Virus genome (UHGV): UHGV-0139558
From: a virus
Reading direction: 5' to 3' (one strand)
Length of the DNA stretch: 30,280 nucleotides
A model generated the notes under the pieces. That model had not been told where the DNA came from, did not search any database, and saw only the letters and a program-made list of their open reading frames with translations. The position numbers and the translations under genes were made by a program. Each line of letters starts with the position of its first letter. The stretch's first letter is position 1. Of this stretch, positions 1,539 to 11,872 are shown piece after piece.

Positions 1539-2662
1539 AATTCTAACTTATTCCAATCTTTTCCCCTGTCATCATGGTAACGATCGGTTTGCTGCTGGGT
1601 TTTATGGCCCAGCAGTTTTCTGGTATCTATCCCTTGCTCCTTGTAAAGGCGTTCAGATAAAGATCTTTGTTCATGAAAAGTTGCTGGAGTTCCAGTACCC
1701 CAATCAATTTTTGCCAGATCACGCGCCTTGCTAAAGTTCATCGTTAGTGTATTAGCTTTTACCTGTGCGCCACGTTCAGCCTGTGAGGTTGTGCGAAAAA
1801 AATGTACAAGATATGGACTGACAGCATAGTCACGGCAGCGGGCTACTACATCTCGCAAACTCCAGTTAATCGCATTGAGACGCAGGGAAAGCGGGATGGC
1901 GATTTTGCTCCCAGTTTTTTCCTGGATGACATGGAGATGATCATCCCAAATATCGCTAAATTTCATACGCGAGATATCACCTAACCTCTGACCGGTAACC
2001 AGTGCTAACAGCATGGCATTCCCCATATAACGATGACTGGCATCTGCGATATCAAAGATTTTTTGCCATTCTTCAAGGCTTAACCGTTGTCGGGTAATTT
2101 TTCTTCTGGGCTGTTTGGTCGCTAATGCTGGATTATAGCCAGGAGGGACCTCCCCATAGTGTTGTGCCTCCTTGAATACATCAATTAGAACGGAGCGGAC
2201 TACTTGCGCCATCCTCGGTTGTCCAGCAGTGATATACTCGTCAAGCAATTGTGCTATATCCCTTACATCAACGGATGAAATTAACTTCATTCCTGCTCGT
2301 TCCCTGAGCAAGGATACTGGTTTAGCTTTCTGTTTATAGGTGTTGAGCTTTATATCGCCACTTTTCAGTCTGTCATCCTGGATTGCTTGATAGCGATCTA
2401 ACCAGGTTGACGTTGTGATTGCTTTTCCTTTGCTGGTTGCGATCCTGTCACTGATAGCTAGAATCTGCCGGGTTCTTTGCTCAGCCAGGCGTGTATTGGC
2501 CTCAGTGGCAATAGCAATGGCTTCAGCTTCGTTTGTGCCCAAAGAATGAAACTTCCCGGTCACTGGATGCTTATATCGCCAATAGACTTTATTTACTTTT
2601 CTGCTATAGAGCGGATATAAGTTCGGGACTGAAACATTATTTTTACGTGGTCTGGCTGCCAT
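1532..2662 (-). CDS. int: Tyrosine site-specific integrase, lambda Int family
   Basis: 376 aa; N-terminal arm-binding-like region 'PNLYPLYSRKVNKVYWRYKHPVTGK', C-terminal catalytic region ending '...HEQRSLSERLYKEQ...LLGHKTQQQTDRYHDDRGKDWNKLELK' which parallels lambda Int (R-H-R-Y motifs). 20-bp overlap with xis as in lambda. Confidence 0.9.
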   Translation of the reverse strand: MAARPRKNNVSVPNLYPLYSRKVNKVYWRYKHPVTGKFHSLGTNEAEAIAIATEANTRLAEQRTRQILAISDRIATSKGKAITTSTWLDRYQAIQDDRLKSGDIKLNTYKQKAKPVSLLRERAGMKLISSVDVRDIAQLLDEYITAGQPRMAQVVRSVLIDVFKEAQHYGEVPPGYNPALATKQPRRKITRQRLSLEEWQKIFDIADASHRYMGNAMLLALVTGQRLGDISRMKFSDIWDDHLHVIQEKTGSKIAIPLSLRLNAINWSLRDVVARCRDYAVSPYLVHFFRTTSQAERGAQVKANTLTMNFSKARDLAKIDWGTGTPATFHEQRSLSERLYKEQGIDTRKLLGHKTQQQTDRYHDDRGKDWNKLELK

Positions 2663-2879
2663 TACTTAAAATCCTTTGTAGAATAATAGAATCACTTTTC
2701 TTGATGACAGGAGTAACTAATTCCCCAACTAACTCTGCGTCCTCACGCACTCGCCATAGTCGACCTTGTTTCATTGCCGGTGGACAAAATAAATTCTGCT
2801 TAGCATAACGACGCAATGTGGACACACTTGGAGGATTACTTCTGTATTTTTCCGTAGCCCATTCCTCAAGTGTCAGCAT
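2643..2879 (-). CDS. xis: Excisionase (lambda Xis-like)
   Basis: Translation 'MLTLEEWATEKYRSNPPSVSTLRRYAKQNLFCPPAMKQGRLWRV' resembles lambda Xis 'MYLTLQEW...'. Overlaps the int start. Start chosen at the third in-frame Met to match lambda Xis; the ORF could start as far upstream as 2903. Confidence 0.7.
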   Translation of the reverse strand: MLTLEEWATEKYRSNPPSVSTLRRYAKQNLFCPPAMKQGRLWRVREDAELVGELVTPVIKKSDSIILQRILSNGSQTT

Positions 2880-2931
2880 TTGAAGCATTTTTGATAACCT
2901 CATTTCTTTTGCTACAAAACTATTTCACTAG

Positions 2932-3480
2932 TTAATTTCGCTGTCTGGATTGTTTATGTATCTTATGCAGCTCTTTAAAGCGTTCCATAAACATCCCGTA
3001 GGCATGGCCCGGTGCCAGTGGAATCACGTTGAACATCTCTGTTGCCGGGATGCCTTCCAGTACAGGCCAGAAAGAGCCATCATCAAGCCCGAGATCGCGG
3101 CGTTCGGTTGCCAGCATGATGAGATCGGCATATTTCACGGGCGTACTCATCACCGGGGGTAACCCGTATTTCTCACGGATCACGGCGTCTATTTTTTCTT
3201 CCATCTGTTTATAGTCAGGAAGAAGGCGTTTCAGTGGCGCGGGGATGTCCTGACAATAAGCTTCTGTTGCATCATGCATTAACGCTTCAAAAGCAAATTC
3301 CTGCGGTACCAGCTGGCTGCAAAGCACCGCATGTTGGGCGACGCTGTAGAAGTGTGAAAGATGTCCTGCAAAGCGACAGATATTTGAAAGGGAAACCGCG
3401 ATATCGTTAATAACGATGTCGTCTTTATTTATCTTGTCATAATAAAAATGCTTCCCGGAAAAAGTTTTAATAAATGACAT
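2932..3480 (-). CDS. HD-domain phosphohydrolase (YfdR-like prophage protein)
   Basis: Contains H...HD metal-binding signature ('HAVLCSQLV...ALMHDATEAY'). Start at 3480 has a GGAG RBS 7 nt upstream; the longer ORF start at 3510 has none. Confidence 0.65.
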   Translation of the reverse strand: MSFIKTFSGKHFYYDKINKDDIVINDIAVSLSNICRFAGHLSHFYSVAQHAVLCSQLVPQEFAFEALMHDATEAYCQDIPAPLKRLLPDYKQMEEKIDAVIREKYGLPPVMSTPVKYADLIMLATERRDLGLDDGSFWPVLEGIPATEMFNVIPLAPGHAYGMFMERFKELHKIHKQSRQRN

Positions 3481-3573
3481 TTTGTTCTCCACGTATATGT
3501 GCTGCGCCATACTGAATTTTGGTAAAAGGAAGCCCTCATCATCCGGCGATTATTGAGTTAATTACGTTTCCAT

Positions 3574-6632: not shown

Positions 6633-7100
6633 TTGAAGAACAACTACCCAGGAAAAAAACTTTATGCACTTGTAAAGGAAATTCTTAAAGATGGTGTTAT
6701 TACTGAAGATGAGAGTTTAACTCTACATAAGGCATTAGTAGACTTCACAGGATGTGACTTGGAAAGTGGGGTGGTGGATGGTTTGGCGACCAGGCTGCCT
6801 ATTGATGTAGGGGCTTCGATAGAGTTAGAGGGTAAAACCTATTGTCTTACAGGCACTTTTGTTGCAGGAAAGAGAGCCGTAGTTGAAAATTTGATTAAAA
6901 ATGCTGGTGGGAACATCAGTAGTGGAATTACTCAAAAGTTGGATTTTTTAGTAATTGGGACGCTTTCCTCCCGTGATTGGAAATTCTCTAGTCACGGAAG
7001 GAAGATCGAAAAGGCTATATCTTATAGGGATGATAATGGTGCAAAACTTAAAATTATTTCTGAAGAAATGCTTTTCGATGCATTACCAAGTTCGCGATGA
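6633..7100 (+). CDS. BRCT-domain protein with N-terminal TerB-like half-motif; same frame as upstream ORF, separated by one TAA
   Basis: C-terminal 'GKTYCLTGTF...GKRAVVENLIKNAGGNISSGITQKLDFLVIG...ISEEMLF' matches the BRCT pattern of LigA C-termini. Listed ORF starts at TTG; frame is open back to the TAA at 6591. Confidence 0.5.
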   Translation: MKNNYPGKKLYALVKEILKDGVITEDESLTLHKALVDFTGCDLESGVVDGLATRLPIDVGASIELEGKTYCLTGTFVAGKRAVVENLIKNAGGNISSGITQKLDFLVIGTLSSRDWKFSSHGRKIEKAISYRDDNGAKLKIISEEMLFDALPSSR

Positions 7101-7769
7101 CCAGAATACCCTACCTATAACATGAATTCTGGCTCGTCTATCTTCAAAGGTGAGTATTTCATCTGGGTACTCATCTTTGTTGAAGCTTCTAAGAATCAAG
7201 CCACCGTCAGGTAAGTTGATAAGTATTTTAACCCTTAGCAATACACCATCTCGTACGGCATAAAGATCGCCATCACGAATAGGAACGGTTTGAGAAATAT
7301 CAACGGCAACAAGATCTCCATTATTGAGAACCGGTAATAAACTGTTCCCCCATATTTGTACGATCTTGGCATTAGATGCACATACGCCAGATTTTCTCAA
7401 ATCTGCTCTTCTTAACGGAAACCAGTCAATAGCTGATTCAACTATTTCAGCCAGACATCCGTTACCTGCCGATAACTCGACATCTAAAACAGGAATGTTT
7501 ACGAAAATATCGGGGTCTAATGCGGTGCTTTCTGCTTCTTTTACAACAAGATCAGGTATGGATGCGTTGTCTTCAATACCAAGTTGTAACCACTTTTGTG
7601 ATACACCTAAAACTTTTGCAATTTCTTTAATTTTGCGCGGTTGTAGAGTTTCGCCATTCTCTATTTTGGCTACAGATTGTTGTGAAAGTCCAATTTTTTC
7701 AGCTAGTTGAGCTTGGCTCATGCCAGCTTTCTCTCTACCTATCTTTAATCGTTCTGCCAGTGTTTTCAC
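7083..7769 (-). CDS. cI: CI-like prophage repressor (HTH_XRE + S24 LexA-like peptidase domain)
   Basis: N-terminal HTH 'MSQAQLAEKIGLSQQSVAKIENGE'; C-terminal S24-like fold; GTG start with AGAGGG RBS; divergent from Cro-like gene across operator repeats. Confidence 0.85.
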   Translation of the reverse strand: MKTLAERLKIGREKAGMSQAQLAEKIGLSQQSVAKIENGETLQPRKIKEIAKVLGVSQKWLQLGIEDNASIPDLVVKEAESTALDPDIFVNIPVLDVELSAGNGCLAEIVESAIDWFPLRRADLRKSGVCASNAKIVQIWGNSLLPVLNNGDLVAVDISQTVPIRDGDLYAVRDGVLLRVKILINLPDGGLILRSFNKDEYPDEILTFEDRRARIHVIGRVFWSSRTW

Positions 7770-7904: not shown

Positions 7905-8153
7905 ATGACACCTGAGCAATTAGCCTTATCGGAGGCAATCGCTCTGGCTGGTGGTCAATCAGAATTGGCTCGGAAGCTCACAGCCAGCAGCGGTCATTTA
8001 GTAAAGCAACAACATGTCTGGAACTGGTTGAACAGAGAAAAGCGTCCCCCTGCAAAGCTCTCGATATTCATTGAAAAGACCACTGGCATATCAAAAGAAA
8101 AATTACGTCCAGATATTTTTCAAAAGATTAAAGATTCATCAGATGAAAAGTAA
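7905..8153 (+). CDS. cro: Cro-like / YdaS-family HTH regulator
   Basis: 82 aa, GGAG RBS; 'AGGQSELARKL...' HTH; position immediately right of OR, divergent from cI. Confidence 0.7.
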   Translation: MTPEQLALSEAIALAGGQSELARKLTASSGHLVKQQHVWNWLNREKRPPAKLSIFIEKTTGISKEKLRPDIFQKIKDSSDEK

Positions 8154-8175: not shown

Positions 8176-8733
8176 GTGGGTAAGCATCACTGGAAAATAG
8201 AAAAACAGCCTGAGTGGTACGTGAAAGCTGTCAGAAAAACTATCGCGGCGTTGCCGGGGGGTTACGCTGAAGCCGCTGACTGGCTGGATGTAACAGAGAA
8301 CGCTTTATTCAACCGCCTTCGTGCAGATGGCGATCAGATTTTCCCGCTGGGATGGGCAATGGTTTTACAGCGTGCTGGTGGCACTCACTTCATTGCTGAT
8401 GCTGTGGCGCAGTCTGCAAATGGCGTCTTTGTGTCTCTTCCTGACGTCGAGGATGTGGACAACGCCGATATTAACCAGCGTCTGCTGGAAGTCATTGAAC
8501 AGATCGGCAGTTATTCAAAACAGATTCGTTCAGCAATCGAAGACGGCGTAGTGGAACCGCATGAGAAGACAGCAATTAACGACGAGCTGTATCTCTCAAT
8601 TTCGAAGCTGCAGGAGCATGCAGCACTTGTCTACAAAATTTTTTGCATTTCAGAAAGTAATGACGCCCGCGAGTGTGCAGCTCCGGGCGTCGTGGCGTCG
8701 ATTGCTTCTGGTTGTGGAGAAACTAACGCATGA
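8176..8733 (+). CDS. CII-like / YdaT-like regulatory protein (putative)
   Basis: GTG start with AAGGAG RBS at 6-nt spacing; follows cro as in Rac-type immunity regions. Family call from position and recollection. Confidence 0.45.
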
Positions 8734-9088
8734 ACAGTTTAACAACACACTACCGTCGCTCGCAACTGATTGCGCTTCCTGTACCGGGTGGAAAAGCGAA
8801 GGTGGAATATTGCTATGCAGTGAATGTACCAGGTGACAGGGAAATTGTAACCCACAGTTTTGCAGAGTGGGCTGTGGGTGATTTCAACCGGCAGAAGGAG
8901 ACAGTCCTTTGCGACAAGTTAACCGCTGGTTCAAAGATCACTACGGAGTGCCCGTCAGAGTCATTCGTTGGGAGCCGGAAACACAACGGGTTATCTACCT
9001 CCGCGAAGGTTATGAGCATGAATGCTTCAGTCCGCTCGAACAGTTTCGTCGTAAATTCAGGGAAATAGAGGTCGGTCATGAGCACTAA
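8730..9088 (+). pseudogene. Small early gene with apparent frame switch (frame 0 N-terminal part 8730..about 8900; frame -1 C-terminal part 8882..9088)
   Basis: Frame-0 ORF becomes Ser-rich and low-complexity after about 8900, while the -1 frame gives protein-like '[58 protein letters not shown]' ending at 9088. Confidence 0.3.
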
Positions 9089-10019
9089 ATTAACCGGCTA
9101 TGTATGGGATGGTTGCGCTGCATCAGGCATGAAGTTATCCAGCGTGGCAATTATGGCCCGCCTGGCTGATTTCAGTAATGACGAAGGTGTGTGCTGGCCA
9201 TCAATTGAAACCATTGCCCGTCAGATTGGCGCGGGGATGAGTACCGTCAGAACGGCTATCGCACGGCTGGAAGCAGAAGGCTGGTTAACGCGTAAGGCGC
9301 GTCGCCAGGGTAACCGCAATGCGTCGAATGTTTATCAGCTTAACGTTGCGAAGCTTCAGGCAGCGGCATTTTCTCAACTGTCAGATTCTGACCCGTCAAA
9401 ATCTGACGCATCAAAATCTGACCCGTCAAAATTTGATGCGTCGAAATCTGGCAAAAAAGCGGGTTTTCACCCGTCAGAATCTGGCGGGGATCCGTCAGTA
9501 AAATCAAAACATGATCCGTCAGATAAAAAACCTTCTCGTCCGGACGCTTCGCAACCGGACACGCAGACGGATGAACAGGATTTTTTAACTCGCCATCCTG
9601 ATGCGGTTGTATTCAGCCCTAAAAAGCGCCAGTGGGGGACGCAGGATGATTTGACCTGCGCACAGTGGCTCTGGAAAAAAATCATCGCCCTGTACGAGCA
9701 TGCCGCCGAATGTGACGGCGAGGTGGTTCGTCCCAAAGAACCGAACTGGACAGCCTGGGCAAACGAAATTCGCCTGATGTGTGTGCAGGATGGTCGTACT
9801 CATAAACAAATCTGCGAGATGTACAGCCGCGTCAGTCGCGATCCGTTCTGGTGCCGTAACGTGCTCAGCCCGTCGAAGCTGCGGGAAAAATGGGATGAGC
9901 TTTCCCTGCGCTTATCGCCGTCCGTCAGCACGTACACCGAAAAACGCGAAGACCCGTACTTCAAAGCCAGTTACGACAACGTGGACTACAGCCAGATCCC
10001 AGCAGGATTCAGGGGGTGA
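9078..10019 (+). CDS. Phage replication initiator (O-like; N-terminal HTH, repeat linker, C-terminal domain)
   Basis: GAGG RBS; N-terminal winged-helix-like 'SIETIARQIGAGMSTVRTAIARLEAEGWL'; central pentapeptide repeats SDPSK/SDASK encoded by 15-bp iterons; position after cro/cII-like genes. Confidence 0.65.
   Translation: MSTKLTGYVWDGCAASGMKLSSVAIMARLADFSNDEGVCWPSIETIARQIGAGMSTVRTAIARLEAEGWLTRKARRQGNRNASNVYQLNVAKLQAAAFSQLSDSDPSKSDASKSDPSKFDASKSGKKAGFHPSESGGDPSVKSKHDPSDKKPSRPDASQPDTQTDEQDFLTRHPDAVVFSPKKRQWGTQDDLTCAQWLWKKIIALYEHAAECDGEVVRPKEPNWTAWANEIRLMCVQDGRTHKQICEMYSRVSRDPFWCRNVLSPSKLREKWDELSLRLSPSVSTYTEKREDPYFKASYDNVDYSQIPAGFRG
9384..9530. repeat. Candidate origin of replication: four 15-bp iterons plus CCGTCAGA repeats and an A-rich tract inside the initiator gene
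   Basis: ATCTGAC(C/G)C(G/A)TCAAA repeated 4 times at 15-bp period (about 9386-9445); CCGTCAGA at 9471, 9492, 9516; then AGATAAAAAACC. Confidence 0.5.
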
Positions 10020-10021
10020 TT

Positions 10022-10510
10022 ATGAGTCTTTTGAATGATGTTCAGAAATTCATTGAAGCCCATCCGGGGTGTACTTCCGGAGACATTGCGGATGCTTTTG
10101 CAGGTTACTCACGGCAGCGCGTTCTGCAGTCAGCAAGCAAGTTACGTCAGAGTGGGCGTGTGGCTCACCGTTGTGAAGGAGATACACGCAGACATTTCCC
10201 GCGCCTGACTGAGAGAGCGCAGGAGTCGGAACCACAACCAGTTCGTGAAACCAGACCTGTGCGCAATTTCTATGTCGGCACTAACGATCCCCGGGTGATT
10301 TTGTGCCTGACCCGCCAGGCGGAAGAACTGGAGTCCAGGGGCTTATACCGTCGTGCTGCAACGGTGTGGATGGCGGCATTCCGTGAAAGCCACTCCCAGC
10401 CAGAACGAAACAATTTTCTGGCGCGTCGTGAGCAGTGTTTACGGAAAAGCAGCAAGCGCGCTGTATCGGGTGATGAGTGGTATCTGTCAGGGAATTACGT
10501 GGGGGCTTAA
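10022..10510 (+). CDS. Hypothetical protein, probable replication-module accessory protein
   Basis: Start ATG 5 nt after AGGGGG; stop overlaps the next start (TAATG). No recognisable motif. Confidence 0.45.
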   Translation: MSLLNDVQKFIEAHPGCTSGDIADAFAGYSRQRVLQSASKLRQSGRVAHRCEGDTRRHFPRLTERAQESEPQPVRETRPVRNFYVGTNDPRVILCLTRQAEELESRGLYRRAATVWMAAFRESHSQPERNNFLARREQCLRKSSKRAVSGDEWYLSGNYVGA

Positions 10511-11163
10511 TGAGTAATAAATATTGCCAGGAGCTGGTGGAACTGCGGAACAAACCAGCCCATGAACTGAAGGAAGTGGGTGATCAGTGGCGCACGCCGG
10601 ACAACATTTTCTGGGGAATTAACACCCTGTTTGGCCCGTTTGTTCTGGATCTGTTCACTGACGGTGATAACGCCAAATGTGCCGCGTATTACACGGCGGA
10701 AGACAACGCGCTGGCGCATGACTGGTCAGAACGCCTTGCGGAGCTTAAAGGTGCTGCCTTTGGTAATCCTCCATACAGCCGCGCCAGTCAGCATGAGGGG
10801 CAATACATCACCGGCATGCGTTACATCATGAAACATGCCAGTGCCATGCGTGATAAGGGCGGGCGCTATGTTTTCCTGATCAAAGCTGCCACCAGCGAAG
10901 TGTGGTGGCCGGAAGATGCAGATCATATTGCTTTTATTCGCGGGCGTATTGGTTTTGAGCTGCCTGTCTGGTTTATCCCGAAAGACGAGAAGCAGATACC
11001 GACAGGAGCTTTTTTCTCTGGTGCTATTGCTGTTTTTGACAAGACCTGGAAGGGACCGGCAATCAGCTACATCGGGCGCGATGAACTTGAGGCATGTGGT
11101 GAGGCCTTTCTGGCGCAGGTTCGCCAGCAGGCGGAAAAACTGGTCAGGGAGATGGTGGCATGA
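10510..11163 (+). CDS. Phage DNA N6-adenine methyltransferase (orphan, Dam-like)
   Basis: 'GNPPYS' (N/D-PP-Y/F) catalytic motif; 217 aa; typical Nin-region location. Confidence 0.8.
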   Translation: MSNKYCQELVELRNKPAHELKEVGDQWRTPDNIFWGINTLFGPFVLDLFTDGDNAKCAAYYTAEDNALAHDWSERLAELKGAAFGNPPYSRASQHEGQYITGMRYIMKHASAMRDKGGRYVFLIKAATSEVWWPEDADHIAFIRGRIGFELPVWFIPKDEKQIPTGAFFSGAIAVFDKTWKGPAISYIGRDELEACGEAFLAQVRQQAEKLVREMVA

Positions 11164-11486
11164 CGACATTAACTCAATGCCAGCAGCAGGTGCTGGATAT
11201 GCTGATTTCTTACCAGAAAGAACGAGGCTTCCCGCCAACCAATCAGGAGGTGGCAACCATGCTGGGATACCGTTCAGTGAATGCAGCGGTGGAGCATCTT
11301 CGCGCACTGGAGAAAAAAGGCGTCATCACGATAAAGCGTGGCGTGGCCCGGGGGATAACGCTTCATACCGCGGTGAAGGACGACGACAGCGAGGCTGTCT
11401 GGATTATCCGCTCACTGCTTGCCGGTGAGGAAAACGCCAGGCTGCGTGCAACCCACTGGTTACATGAGAGAGGCCTGAAAGTATGA
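11160..11486 (+). CDS. LexA N-terminal DNA-binding-domain-like protein (no peptidase domain)
   Basis: 'QQQVLDMLISYQKERGFPPTNQEVATMLGYRSVNAAVEHLRALEKKGVITI' parallels LexA winged-HTH '[52 protein letters not shown]'; only 108 aa. Confidence 0.6.
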   Translation: MTTLTQCQQQVLDMLISYQKERGFPPTNQEVATMLGYRSVNAAVEHLRALEKKGVITIKRGVARGITLHTAVKDDDSEAVWIIRSLLAGEENARLRATHWLHERGLKV

Positions 11487-11872
11487 AACTGATCCTGCCT
11501 TTCCCGCCCAGCGTGAATACGTACTGGCGACACCCTAACAAAGGGGCGTTTGCTGGTAAAAGCCTGATAAGCGCGGCGGGGCGCAAATTCCAGAGCGCGG
11601 CGTGCGCAGCAATAGTTGAGCAGTTACGTCGTCTTCCGAAACCAACGTCGGCACCTGCTTCAGTGGAGATCGTGTTGTTTCCTCCGGATAACCGGATCCG
11701 CGATCTGGACAACTATAACAAGGCGCTGTTTGACGCCCTGACCCACGCGGGTGTGTGGGAAGACGACAGTCAGGTGAAAAGAATGCTGGTGGAGTGGGGA
11801 CCGGTTATCCCGGAAGGGAAGGTCGAGATCACTATCAGTAAGTACGAGAAAACGGCGGGTGCAGCCGCCTGA
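11483..11872 (+). CDS. rusA: RusA-family Holliday junction resolvase
   Basis: 'LPFPPSVNTYWRH...RDLDNYNKALFDALTHAGVWEDDSQV' matches the RusA catalytic core (DxD...D). Confidence 0.85.
   Translation: MKLILPFPPSVNTYWRHPNKGAFAGKSLISAAGRKFQSAACAAIVEQLRRLPKPTSAPASVEIVLFPPDNRIRDLDNYNKALFDALTHAGVWEDDSQVKRMLVEWGPVIPEGKVEITISKYEKTAGAAA

What the first reader, a model, noticed from the sequence alone, without database searches (positions are those of the whole stretch)
9384..9530. Iteron array inside the replication initiator gene: candidate phage origin
Seen in sequence: four 15-bp direct repeats ATCTGAC(C/G)C(G/A)TCAAA, then three CCGTCAGA copies and an A-rich tract, all within the linker-coding part of the O-like gene (encoding SDPSK/SDASK repeats). 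Established knowledge: lambda ori consists of iterons plus an AT-rich region embedded in gene O, bound by O protein itself.
Basis: partly seen in the sequence, partly recalled or inferred. Interest (0 to 1): 0.45.

Follow-up and report, generated by a model that had tools for sequence, protein, structure and literature searches.

The report
Prophage replication origin inside initiator gene
The repeats are real and are almost certainly the replication origin of a very common E. coli/Shigella prophage (SfII/SfIV/CPS-53 type), written into the flexible-linker coding part of the phage's own initiator gene as in phage lambda; this is an uncharacterised example of a well-known design, not a new kind of element.

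Summary
Observation confirmed and sharpened. Window 9380-9485 holds six copies of a 13-bp near-palindrome, GTCAGAWTCTGAC: five in tandem every 15 bp and a sixth 33 bp later. A conserved block follows, with two GATC sites and the least stable 40 bp of the gene (9497-9536). All of it lies in the predicted disordered linker (residues 102-158) of a 313-aa initiator (9078-10019).

Three results point to a cis-acting DNA element, not a peptide repeat.
- In 73 homologous genes, Ser/Lys codons in the repeats are fixed (TCA 95%, AAA 100%, TCT 89%). Synonymous sites in the adjacent N-domain are saturated.
- The repeat sequence follows the N-terminal DNA-binding domain, not the C-terminal domain.
- The motif occurs nowhere else in the 30-kb window.

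It fails on three points. The N-domain is Pfam HTH_36, not lambda Phage_rep_O. The downstream gene is a PerC-family regulator, not a helicase loader. Two of the three "CCGTCAGA copies" belong to a block that does not track initiator type.

How the helicase is recruited is unknown. The initiator ends in SQIPAGFRG, almost identical to the conserved C-terminus of host DnaT.

Verdict: a new member of a known kind. No binding or replication experiment was found.

The parts
9078..10019 (+). Replication initiator gene (313 aa), 'O-like' in architecture. Residues 1-101 form a winged-helix N-domain, 102-158 a disordered linker, 166-279 a helical C-domain, and 281-313 a disordered tail.
9380..9452 (.). 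Five tandem iterons with a 15-bp period. Each has a 13-bp near-palindromic core (G/A)TCA(A/G)AWTCTGA(C/T). They start at 9380, 9395, 9410, 9425 and 9440.
   Evidence: The array is defined. The position matrix comes from 404 units in 73 genes.
9453..9472 (.). Spacer AAAAAAGCGGGTTTTCACCC (an A6 run, then a T4 run) between iterons 5 and 6. Together with iteron 6 it forms an inverted repeat with iterons 1-2.
   Evidence: The inverted repeats are I1/I2. GGT-TTT-(G/C)AC-CCG is fixed at synonymous sites. A weak minus-strand hairpin followed by T6 lies at 9460-9473; terminator-like sites were not in clear excess over shuffles (8 found against 4.3 expected, sd 2.2).
9473..9485 (.). Iteron 6 (GTCAGAATCTGGC), set 33 bp after iteron 5.
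   Evidence: It is found. An isolated last unit 11 or 16 codons after the tandem array recurs in the homologous genes. TCA-GAA-TCT is 97-100% fixed.
9489..9536 (.). Conserved A-rich block holding two GATC boxes, GATCCGTCAGTA (9489) and GATCCGTCAGAT (9513), 24 bp apart. It contains the least stable 40 bp of the gene (9497-9536) and is the candidate unwinding region.
   Evidence: Synonymous sites are about 100% fixed. The GATC pair is exactly 24 bp apart in 58 of 69 genes. The block is retained in relatives that have different iterons.
9537..9560 (.). Conserved end of the element (TCTCGTCCGGACGCTTCGCAACCG). It also coincides with the mosaic junction where N-domain and C-domain modules are exchanged.
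   Evidence: The homology breakpoints are at query 443 for mEp460_4F5 and query 479 for phiNP. Codon conservation is and the protein alignment.
9990..10016 (+). C-terminal tail SQIPAGFRG, a short linear motif shared with the extreme C-terminus of host DnaT.
   Evidence: It matches E. coli DnaT at 8 of 9 residues, at the C-terminus of both proteins. P308, G310, F311 and R312 are invariant or nearly so in 30 homologues. Of 107 DnaT orthologues, 99 end in GFRG.
10016..10510 (+). Downstream gene: a PerC/YfdN-family transcriptional activator, not a helicase loader.
   Evidence: It matches PF06069 PerC at 1e-09 and phrog_1324 at 4e-78. RefSeq annotates it as yfdN.
10477..11163 (+). Phage Dam (N6-adenine) methyltransferase. 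It may be relevant to the conserved GATC pair in the origin; this link is inferred only.
   Evidence: It matches PF05869 at 2.2e-45. A Dam-like gene follows the initiator in many relatives.

Best explanation
Window ~9380-9560 is the vegetative replication origin of this lambdoid prophage. It is embedded in the linker-coding part of the prophage's own initiator gene.

**Proposed mechanism.** Items 1 and 5 rest on tool results here; items 2-4 are inferred.
1. The gene lies in the rightward early gene cluster, downstream of a cI-like repressor gene and Cro/CII-like genes.
2. Dimers of the winged-helix N-domain (residues 1-101) bind the six 13-bp near-palindromic iterons. Five are spaced every 15 bp and one is offset by 33 bp. 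Binding builds a higher-order complex like the lambda O-some.
3. That complex strains and opens the adjacent A-rich block (9489-9536). The block carries two GATC sites 24 bp apart that the phage's own Dam methylase could modify.
4. The C-terminal domain, together with the DnaT-like tail SQIPAGFRG, then brings in the host helicase-loading machinery, either DnaB-DnaC or the PriA primosome.
5. No phage helicase or loader gene was found within 3 kb downstream of the initiator, which is why host machinery is invoked.
For: **1. Real, local and non-random.** All matches to the 13-mer with 2 or fewer mismatches in the 30 kb fall at 9380-9485. The tandem array scores 86-100 in Tandem Repeats Finder.

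**2. Selection acts on the DNA, not the peptide.** I defined units only by the protein pattern x-S-[KENQ]-S-[DE]. That gave 168 units from 73 genes, drawn mostly from one-genome-per-species contigs of many Enterobacterales genera.

| Position in unit | Codon used | Share in repeats | Share elsewhere in the same genes |
|---|---|---|---|
| First Ser | TCA | 160/168 | 16% |
| Lys | AAA | 121/121 | 63% |
| Glu | GAA | 30/30 | 56% |
| Second Ser | TCT | 150/168 | 9% |
| Any Ser | AGC | 0/336 | 33% |

The spacer codon is free in both nucleotide and amino acid. In the adjacent N-domain, third positions of codons with identical amino acids are only 44.5% identical between pairs. The commonest codon there has a median share of 0.53.

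**3. The next ~100 bp shows the same fixation of synonymous sites,** in a position-specific pattern interrupted by variable columns. That pattern argues against a recent sweep.

**4. A two-way modular test.**
- The same N-domain with three different C-termini keeps the same iterons. The three types are the window type, the TIGR02220 type (phiNP, Flotzy) and the YeP2 type.
- The same C-domain with four different N-domains carries four different repeats:

| N-domain source | Repeat |
|---|---|
| window | TCAGAATCTGA |
| L096 | GTCCAGAAWCTGRAC |
| L094 | CCCCTCAAATATTGA |
| mEp460_4F5 | 23-bp CATCGGGTCAAAGTGACCTGATG |

- Of 13 phage homologues, 11 have a TRF-detected array of 15-24-bp period directly after the wHTH.

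**5. Position in the protein.** The element coincides with the predicted disordered linker (pLDDT below 50 for residues 102-158). This is the arrangement reported for lambda, P22 and L (PMC8022706). In a lambda-type phage, synonymous iteron mutations abolish plasmid replication (PMC7466680).

**6. The module works in viable phages.** SfII, SfIV, Kati and PhiR29 carry it at 98-99% identity.
Against: - No experiment on binding or origin activity for this initiator type turned up. The SfIV genome paper does not mention an origin.
- The AT-rich region is modest: 70% A+T over 40 bp, 94th percentile of the window.
- The 15-bp spacing puts neighbouring sites on nearly opposite faces of the helix. This differs from what I recall of lambda's phased iterons, which I did not check here.
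- The helicase-recruitment step is entirely inferred.
- The DnaT-like tail also occurs on initiators that are followed by a DnaC-like gene (L094; K-12 YdaU/YdaV). It therefore does not simply replace a loader.
- About 27 no-tail relatives lack both the tail and a detectable loader; they include the YeP2-type genes and a few distant homologues.
- Nucleotide-level conservation proves a cis function, but not that the function is replication initiation.
Confidence: 0.8

Rival explanations
1. The repeats are only a by-product of a low-complexity (S-D-x-S-K)n protein linker that grew by slippage. They have no function as DNA.
For: The copy number varies widely among homologues, from about 1 to 10 units, as expected for a slippage-prone array. 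The region is predicted to be disordered.
Against: Protein-level selection cannot explain the codon pattern. TCA and TCT are each fixed at their own serine position, AAA is used 121 times out of 121, and AGC is never used in 336 serine codons. Neighbouring synonymous sites are saturated. The spacer amino acid is free while the nucleotide core is conserved. The repeat sequence changes with the N-domain.
Confidence: 0.04
2. The repeats are binding sites for the initiator or another regulator, used for autoregulation, as a transcriptional roadblock or for copy control. The true origin lies elsewhere in the phage.
For: A winged-helix protein with an array of cognate sites inside its own gene could repress its own transcription. 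The AT-rich region is weak. Origin activity has not been shown.
Against: The motif does not occur anywhere else in the 30-kb window. The architecture matches characterised origins point for point: iterons, then a low-stability block, in the linker of an O-like initiator. The conserved non-iteron block next to the array has no obvious role in simple autorepression.
Confidence: 0.1
3. The nucleotide conservation of 9489-9560 reflects a recombination 'linker' that is conserved because it is the junction where lambdoid modules are swapped. It would not be an unwinding element.
For: Homology breakpoints between mosaic relatives fall at about 9520-9556. The block is shared by initiators with different N-domains.
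Against: The conservation is position-specific, with variable columns interleaved, rather than a uniform recently exchanged tract. The exact 24-bp spacing of the GATC pair is kept in 58 of 69 genes. The two roles are not mutually exclusive.
Confidence: 0.06

Closest known systems
Bacteriophage lambda ori inside gene O (also the 933W/Stx phage origins)
   Same: The iterons have internal dyad symmetry and lie inside the initiator's own coding sequence, in the segment between the DNA-binding N-domain and the C-terminal recruitment domain. An A+T-rich stretch lies to their right, and the whole element sits in the rightward early gene cluster. In the lambda type, synonymous iteron changes kill replication (PMC7466680).
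   Different: The N-domain is Pfam HTH_36, not Phage_rep_O. The unit is a 13-bp core on a 15-bp period arranged 5+1; lambda has four repeats of about 20 bp (PMC8022706) and the Stx phages six (PMC7466680). The A+T-rich part is weaker and carries a conserved GATC pair. There is no P gene; the next gene belongs to the PerC family. The C-terminus carries a DnaT-like tail.
P22 gene 18 and phage L gene 18 origins
   Same: These are distantly related O-like initiators that each carry their own iteron set within the coding region. Phage L has six imprecise 11-bp repeats. The general rule is stated in PMC8022706.
   Different: Those initiators are paired with a DnaB-type helicase, gene 12. The initiator here has no helicase or loader gene next to it. 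The iteron sequences are unrelated.
SfV/mEp460/ST64B-type and phiP27 L17-type initiators (same PHROG neighbourhood)
   Same: They share the HTH_36 wHTH, repeats, C-domain layout. SfV, mEp460 and ST64B share the last ~25 codons and tail with the window gene and have the same PerC, Dam, LexA-like, RusA gene order. phiP27 has a 60%-identical N-domain and related 15-bp repeats, TCTGAACCGTCAAAA.
   Different: The mEp460/ST64B repeats are unrelated 21-24-bp units. phiP27 lacks the tail and is followed by DnaC and a helicase.
E. coli DnaT (primosomal protein I)
   Same: The extreme C-terminus is shared: DnaT ends SQIPPGFRG and the initiator ends SQIPAGFRG. The motif is conserved in DnaT orthologues. 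This shared tail probably explains why many phage records name the gene 'primosomal protein (I)'.
   Different: There is no similarity outside the tail. The initiator has no PF17948 DnaT domain, so it is not a DnaT homologue.
Iteron-containing plasmid replicons (pPS10, R6K, F, RK2 Rep proteins)
   Same: A winged-helix initiator binds an array of direct repeats next to an unwinding region and relies on the host DnaB/DnaC.
   Different: To my knowledge plasmid iterons lie outside the rep coding sequence and Rep proteins have a WH1-WH2 fold; this is from memory and was not tested here. In this search only a sub-threshold RP-C match appeared (E 0.0047, 17.2 bits against a cut-off of 24.4).

Membership tests
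Lambdoid 'origin inside the initiator gene' (lambda/P22/L type) | An array of three or more direct repeats (iterons) inside the initiator ORF | tested here: met
   There are six copies at 9380-9485.
Lambdoid 'origin inside the initiator gene' (lambda/P22/L type) | The iterons lie between the DNA-binding N-domain and the C-terminal recruitment domain | tested here: met
   AlphaFold2 predicts a wHTH at 1-101, disorder at 102-158 (nt 9381-9551) and a helical domain at 166-279.
Lambdoid 'origin inside the initiator gene' (lambda/P22/L type) | The iteron sequence is specific to, and exchanged together with, the initiator's N-terminal domain | tested here: met
   The same N-domain with three different C-termini keeps the same iterons. 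The same C-domain with four different N-domains carries four different repeats.
Lambdoid 'origin inside the initiator gene' (lambda/P22/L type) | Nucleotide-level constraint on the repeats beyond what coding requires | tested here: met
   TCA 95%, AAA 100% and TCT 89% in the repeats, against 16%, 63% and 9% elsewhere. N-domain synonymous sites are saturated.
Lambdoid 'origin inside the initiator gene' (lambda/P22/L type) | An A+T-rich unwinding region flanking the iterons | tested here: inconclusive
   Bases 9497-9536 are 70% A+T. This is the least stable 40-mer in the gene but only the 94th percentile of the window.
Lambdoid 'origin inside the initiator gene' (lambda/P22/L type) | The initiator binds the iterons, and the fragment supports initiator-dependent replication | not testable with these tools
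   This needs EMSA or footprinting and a plasmid replication assay. No such data were found for this initiator type.
Lambda O/P replication module | The N-terminal domain belongs to Pfam PF04492 (Phage_rep_O) | tested here: not met
   hmmscan returns PF13730 HTH_36 and other wHTH families, and no PF04492 match at E <= 0.01.
Lambda O/P replication module | A helicase loader (P or DnaC-like) or a helicase is encoded immediately downstream | tested here: not met
   The next genes are PerC-like, Dam, LexA-like and RusA. tblastn with seven loader or helicase references finds nothing within 3 kb.
PHROG 391 'replication initiation O-like' | A full-length profile match | tested here: met
   E 4e-135, residues 1-313 against profile positions 1-298 of 298.
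DnaT / primosomal protein I (PF17948) | The DnaT domain | tested here: not met
   Only the last 9 residues match, and there is no PF17948 hit. The database label 'primosomal protein' is not justified as a claim of homology.

The most novel reading that the evidence does not exclude
The initiator may dispense with a phage helicase loader because its conserved C-terminal motif (D-Y-S-x-I-P-x-G-F-R-G) copies the invariant C-terminal tail of host DnaT. Through that motif it would plug the phage origin directly into the host machinery, either DnaB-DnaC or the PriA primosome. The same portable tail sits on at least two unrelated initiator families (HTH_36 here, DUF1376 in Rac YdaU) and on DnaT itself. 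This would make it a shared 'helicase-recruitment tag' whose partner could be identified using the phage. In addition, the strictly conserved GATC pair 24 bp apart in the unwinding block, together with the phage-encoded Dam, may couple firing to methylation state.
Probability: 0.3. Interest if true: 0.6.

Novelty: new member of a known kind. Interest (0 to 1): 0.35.

Why it matters
This replication module is in about half of complete E. coli genomes: 2723 of 5426 have a match and 1576 carry most of the gene. It is also in the Shigella serotype-converting phages SfII and SfIV. A 5'-truncated copy that keeps the repeat region (query 234-942) is in the K-12-derived strain JW5503, next to yfdN. 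From memory, this corresponds to yfdO of the K-12 CPS-53 remnant.

I found no description of its origin. Pinning the origin to ~9380-9560 has four practical uses.
- It gives a testable minimal replicon.
- It warns that recoding or 'synonymous' editing of this gene will destroy a cis element.
- It corrects the misleading database names 'primosomal protein' and 'helix-turn-helix domain-containing protein'.
- It provides a natural series of matched initiator/iteron pairs for studying winged-helix specificity.

The DnaT-like tail may offer a handle on how DnaT recruits DnaB/DnaC, which is described as still unknown in PMC13377028.

Tried and rejected
- **Prior description of this origin.** Literature searches for SfV/SfIV/yfdO found nothing. 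The SfV genome paper is not held.
- **Experimental support from Kozlowska et al. 2020.** Their 'P27' O protein is a lambda-type O with lambda-type iterons. It is not the phiP27 (AJ298298) L17 homologue, so it is only an analogy.
- **Rac prophage oriJ as a characterised relative.** K-12 YdaU is a DUF1376 protein unrelated to this initiator except for the tail. It has no comparable repeat array.
- **Simple rule 'tail means no loader gene'.** The first sample supported it: 0/49/9/27 for tail+loader / tail only / loader only / neither, Fisher p = 2e-4. L094 and YdaU-YdaV then contradicted it.
- **Extra CCGTCAGA copies at 8952, 9218 and 9244 as outlying sites.** The N-domain codons concerned are not fixed at the nucleotide level, so these are probably chance matches.
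- **RNA element.** Rfam gives only a spurious mir-5880 match, 30.7 bits against a gathering score of 97, caused by the dyad symmetry.
- **Internal promoter.** No sigma-70-like site was found between 7000 and 10600.
- **One literature search returned only noise** ('GFRG', 'initiator-solo').
- **Circular 37-44-kb 'plasmid' records that carry the module**. These look like phage circles in assemblies and do not prove origin function.

Full report
**Context**

The window is an E. coli/Shigella lambdoid prophage. Around the finding the gene order is as follows:

| Coordinates | Strand | Product |
|---|---|---|
| 7083-7769 | - | cI-like S24 repressor |
| 7905-8153 | + | YdaS/Cro-like protein |
| to 8733 | + | CII-like (CP76) regulator |
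| 8730-9088 | + | two small overlapping ORFs |
| 9078-10019 | + | initiator |
| 10016-10510 | + | PerC/YfdN-family activator |
| 10477-11163 | + | Dam methylase |
| 11160-11486 | + | LexA-like protein |
| 11483-11872 | + | RusA |

The initiator gene is 98-99% identical to that of the viable phages SfII, SfIV, Kati and PhiR29. It matches 2723 of 5426 complete E. coli genomes. In the K-12-derived strain JW5503 the match covers only query 234-942, so the 5' part of the gene is missing there but the repeat region is kept.

**Observation**

Tandem Repeats Finder reports a 15-bp array at 9387-9450 with 4.3 copies and a score of 86, or 100 when read as a 30-bp unit. The repeat finder gives six copies spaced 15, 15, 15, 15 and 33 bp.

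Read in the other register, the unit is a 13-bp near-palindrome, GTCAGAWTCTGAC, followed by 2 variable bases. Copies start at 9380, 9395, 9410, 9425, 9440 and 9473. All matches with 2 or fewer mismatches in the 30-kb window are in this cluster.

CCGTCAGA occurs 7 times against 0.73 expected. Only the copies at 9471 and 9516 are exact within the stated interval.

The 'A-rich tract' is modest. Bases 9497-9536 are 70% A+T. That is the least stable 40-mer of the gene but only the 94th percentile of the window.

**Peptide repeat or DNA element?**

I collected 79 loci encoding a closely related N-domain from one-genome-per-species contigs (69-100% identity for 72 of them, seven more distant), plus phage records. 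In 73 usable genes the array has 1-9 in-frame units, most often 5 or 6. The step between units is 5 codons in 277 of 331 cases.

To avoid circularity I then defined units only by the protein pattern x-S-[KENQ]-S-[DE]. That gave 168 units.

| Position in unit | Codon | Share in repeats | Share elsewhere in the same genes |
|---|---|---|---|
| First Ser | TCA | 160/168 | 16% |
| Lys | AAA | 121/121 | 63% |
| Glu | GAA | 30/30 | 56% |
| Second Ser | TCT | 150/168 | 9% |
| Any Ser | AGC | 0/336 | 33% |

The spacer codon varies freely (GCA, GCG, CCG, ACG, GGG, ACA, CTG and others). In the adjacent N-domain, third positions of codons with identical amino acids are only 44.5% identical between pairs. 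The commonest codon there has a median share of 0.53. Synonymous sites are therefore saturated around the array but frozen within it. This is selection on the nucleotide sequence.

The same freezing extends about 100 bp further, through GGTTTT(G/C)ACCCGTCAGAATCTGG.GGGGATCCGTCAGTAAA.TCAAAA...GATCC.TCAGAT and beyond. Variable columns are interleaved, so it is not a recently exchanged tract. The element is therefore about 9380-9560.

**What the repeats go with**

Nature has done the swap experiment.
- phiNP, Flotzy, YeP2 and many chromosomal copies have the same N-domain joined to a different C-terminal domain (TIGR02220 type, with or without an extension). They keep the same iterons with the same spacing.
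- Genes with the window's C-domain but other N-domains carry other repeats at the same place:

| Gene | Repeat |
|---|---|
| L096 | GTCCAGAAWCTGRAC x4.6 |
| L094 | TGACCCCTCAAATAT x3.2 |
| mEp460_4F5 | 23-bp CATCGGGTCAAAGTGACCTGATG x4-5 |

- More distant HTH_36 initiators (mEp460, Min27, RAH1, ZF40) each have their own 21-24-bp array directly after the wHTH. TRF detected an array of 15-24-bp period in 11 of 13 phage homologues. ST64B keeps only a degenerate version and none was detected in SF6.

So the iterons track the DNA-binding domain. The GATC-containing block downstream does not: L094 and L096 keep GATCCGTCAGTA...GATCCGT despite having different iterons.

**Protein**

AlphaFold2 was run with 30 homologues; mean pLDDT was 65.8, with the structured domains at 70-90. 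It predicts four parts:
- a winged helix at residues 1-101;
- a disordered segment at 102-158, which maps to nt 9381-9551 and so coincides with the cis element;
- a helical C-domain at 166-279;
- a disordered tail.

**Mechanism and its gaps**

The architecture matches the rule stated for lambda, P22 and L, in which each initiator binds its own iterons within its own coding region (PMC8022706). It also fits the lambda-type Stx phage work, where synonymous iteron mutations abolish plasmid replication (PMC7466680). I therefore read 9380-9560 as the origin, made of six initiator sites followed by a low-stability block. Binding, unwinding and origin activity are all inferred.

Helicase recruitment is the open step. 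The downstream gene is PerC-like. tblastn with seven loader or helicase references finds nothing within 3 kb.

The initiator ends in SQIPAGFRG, which matches 8 of 9 residues at the extreme C-terminus of E. coli DnaT. The motif is nearly invariant among homologous initiators and among DnaT orthologues, 99 of 107 of which end in GFRG.

In the first sample the counts were as follows:

| Class of initiator | Count |
|---|---|
| Tail and a loader or helicase gene next door | 0 |
| Tail only | 49 |
| Loader or helicase only | 9 |
| Neither | 27 |

That rule is not absolute. L094 has both the tail and a DnaC-like gene. The unrelated Rac YdaU ends in SAIPPGFRG and precedes the DnaC-like YdaV, just as dnaT precedes dnaC.

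How DnaT recruits DnaB/DnaC is stated to be unknown (PMC13377028). The tail's partner therefore cannot be named.

**GATC pair**

The two GATC sites are exactly 24 bp apart in 58 of 69 genes, against 0.38 GATC per 138 nt elsewhere in those genes. At these positions the Asp codon is GAT in every sequence that has Asp there, whereas GAC dominates in the iterons. A Dam gene follows in this phage and in many relatives. A link to methylation or SeqA is speculation.

**Verdict**

This is a new, uncharacterised member of the known 'origin inside the initiator gene' class, with a different winged-helix family, a different iteron geometry and no partner gene. Interest is moderate to low. The DnaT-like tail is the most promising lead.

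Noticed in passing
window 9990-10016: The initiator's last nine residues, SQIPAGFRG, match the extreme C-terminus of host DnaT (SQIPPGFRG). The same tail ends the unrelated Rac protein YdaU (SAIPPGFRG). It is conserved in 99 of 107 DnaT orthologues, which suggests a portable interaction motif.
   Followed up: partly
window 9489-9516: Two GATC sites exactly 24 bp apart are fixed at synonymous positions. The spacing is kept in 58 of 69 related genes. The phage encodes its own Dam methylase two genes downstream (10477-11163).
   Followed up: partly
window 8730-9068 and 8909-9088: Two same-strand ORFs overlap by 160 nt in different frames, and both have strong family matches (phrog_1170 at 7.6e-70; DUF4222/phrog_1343 at 2e-34). 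SfIV annotates the first and RefSeq E. coli annotates the second. This is either dual coding or a propagated mis-annotation.
   Followed up: no
window 9520-9556: Homology with mosaic relatives breaks here. mEp460_4F5 shares only the part to the right and phiNP only the part to the left. The end of the origin therefore doubles as the junction where N-domain/iteron and C-domain modules are exchanged.
   Followed up: partly
L006 (YeP2) 2501-3517; L027, L033, L050, L054, L063-L079: A third C-terminal type of about 340 aa ends in ...IWKE..QR...AA. It has neither the DnaT-like tail nor any detectable loader or helicase gene downstream. How it recruits a helicase is unexplained.
   Followed up: no
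window 9460-9473 (minus strand): A 5-bp GC hairpin, CGGGT-GAAA-ACCCG, followed by T6 lies on the minus strand between iterons 5 and 6. It resembles a terminator, but such sites were not in clear excess over shuffles (8 found against 4.3 expected, sd 2.2) and the stem is not well conserved in relatives.
   Followed up: partly
window 8952, 9218, 9244: Extra exact CCGTCAGA copies lie upstream of the array, in the preceding ORF and in the N-domain coding part. The N-domain codons involved are not fixed in relatives, so these are probably chance matches.
   Followed up: partly
L098 (NZ_CP081716.1) and other 37-44-kb circular 'plasmid' records: Several PLSDB 'plasmids' of phage-genome size carry this replication module, and no plasmid replicon type is shown for them. 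They are probably circular phage genomes captured in assemblies.
   Followed up: partly
L066, L085 (E. coli CP178308.1, CP178306.1): In these genomes the initiator reading frame departs from the family after residue 79 and continues into unrelated sequence, giving a 455-aa ORF. The copy is disrupted or fused.
   Followed up: no
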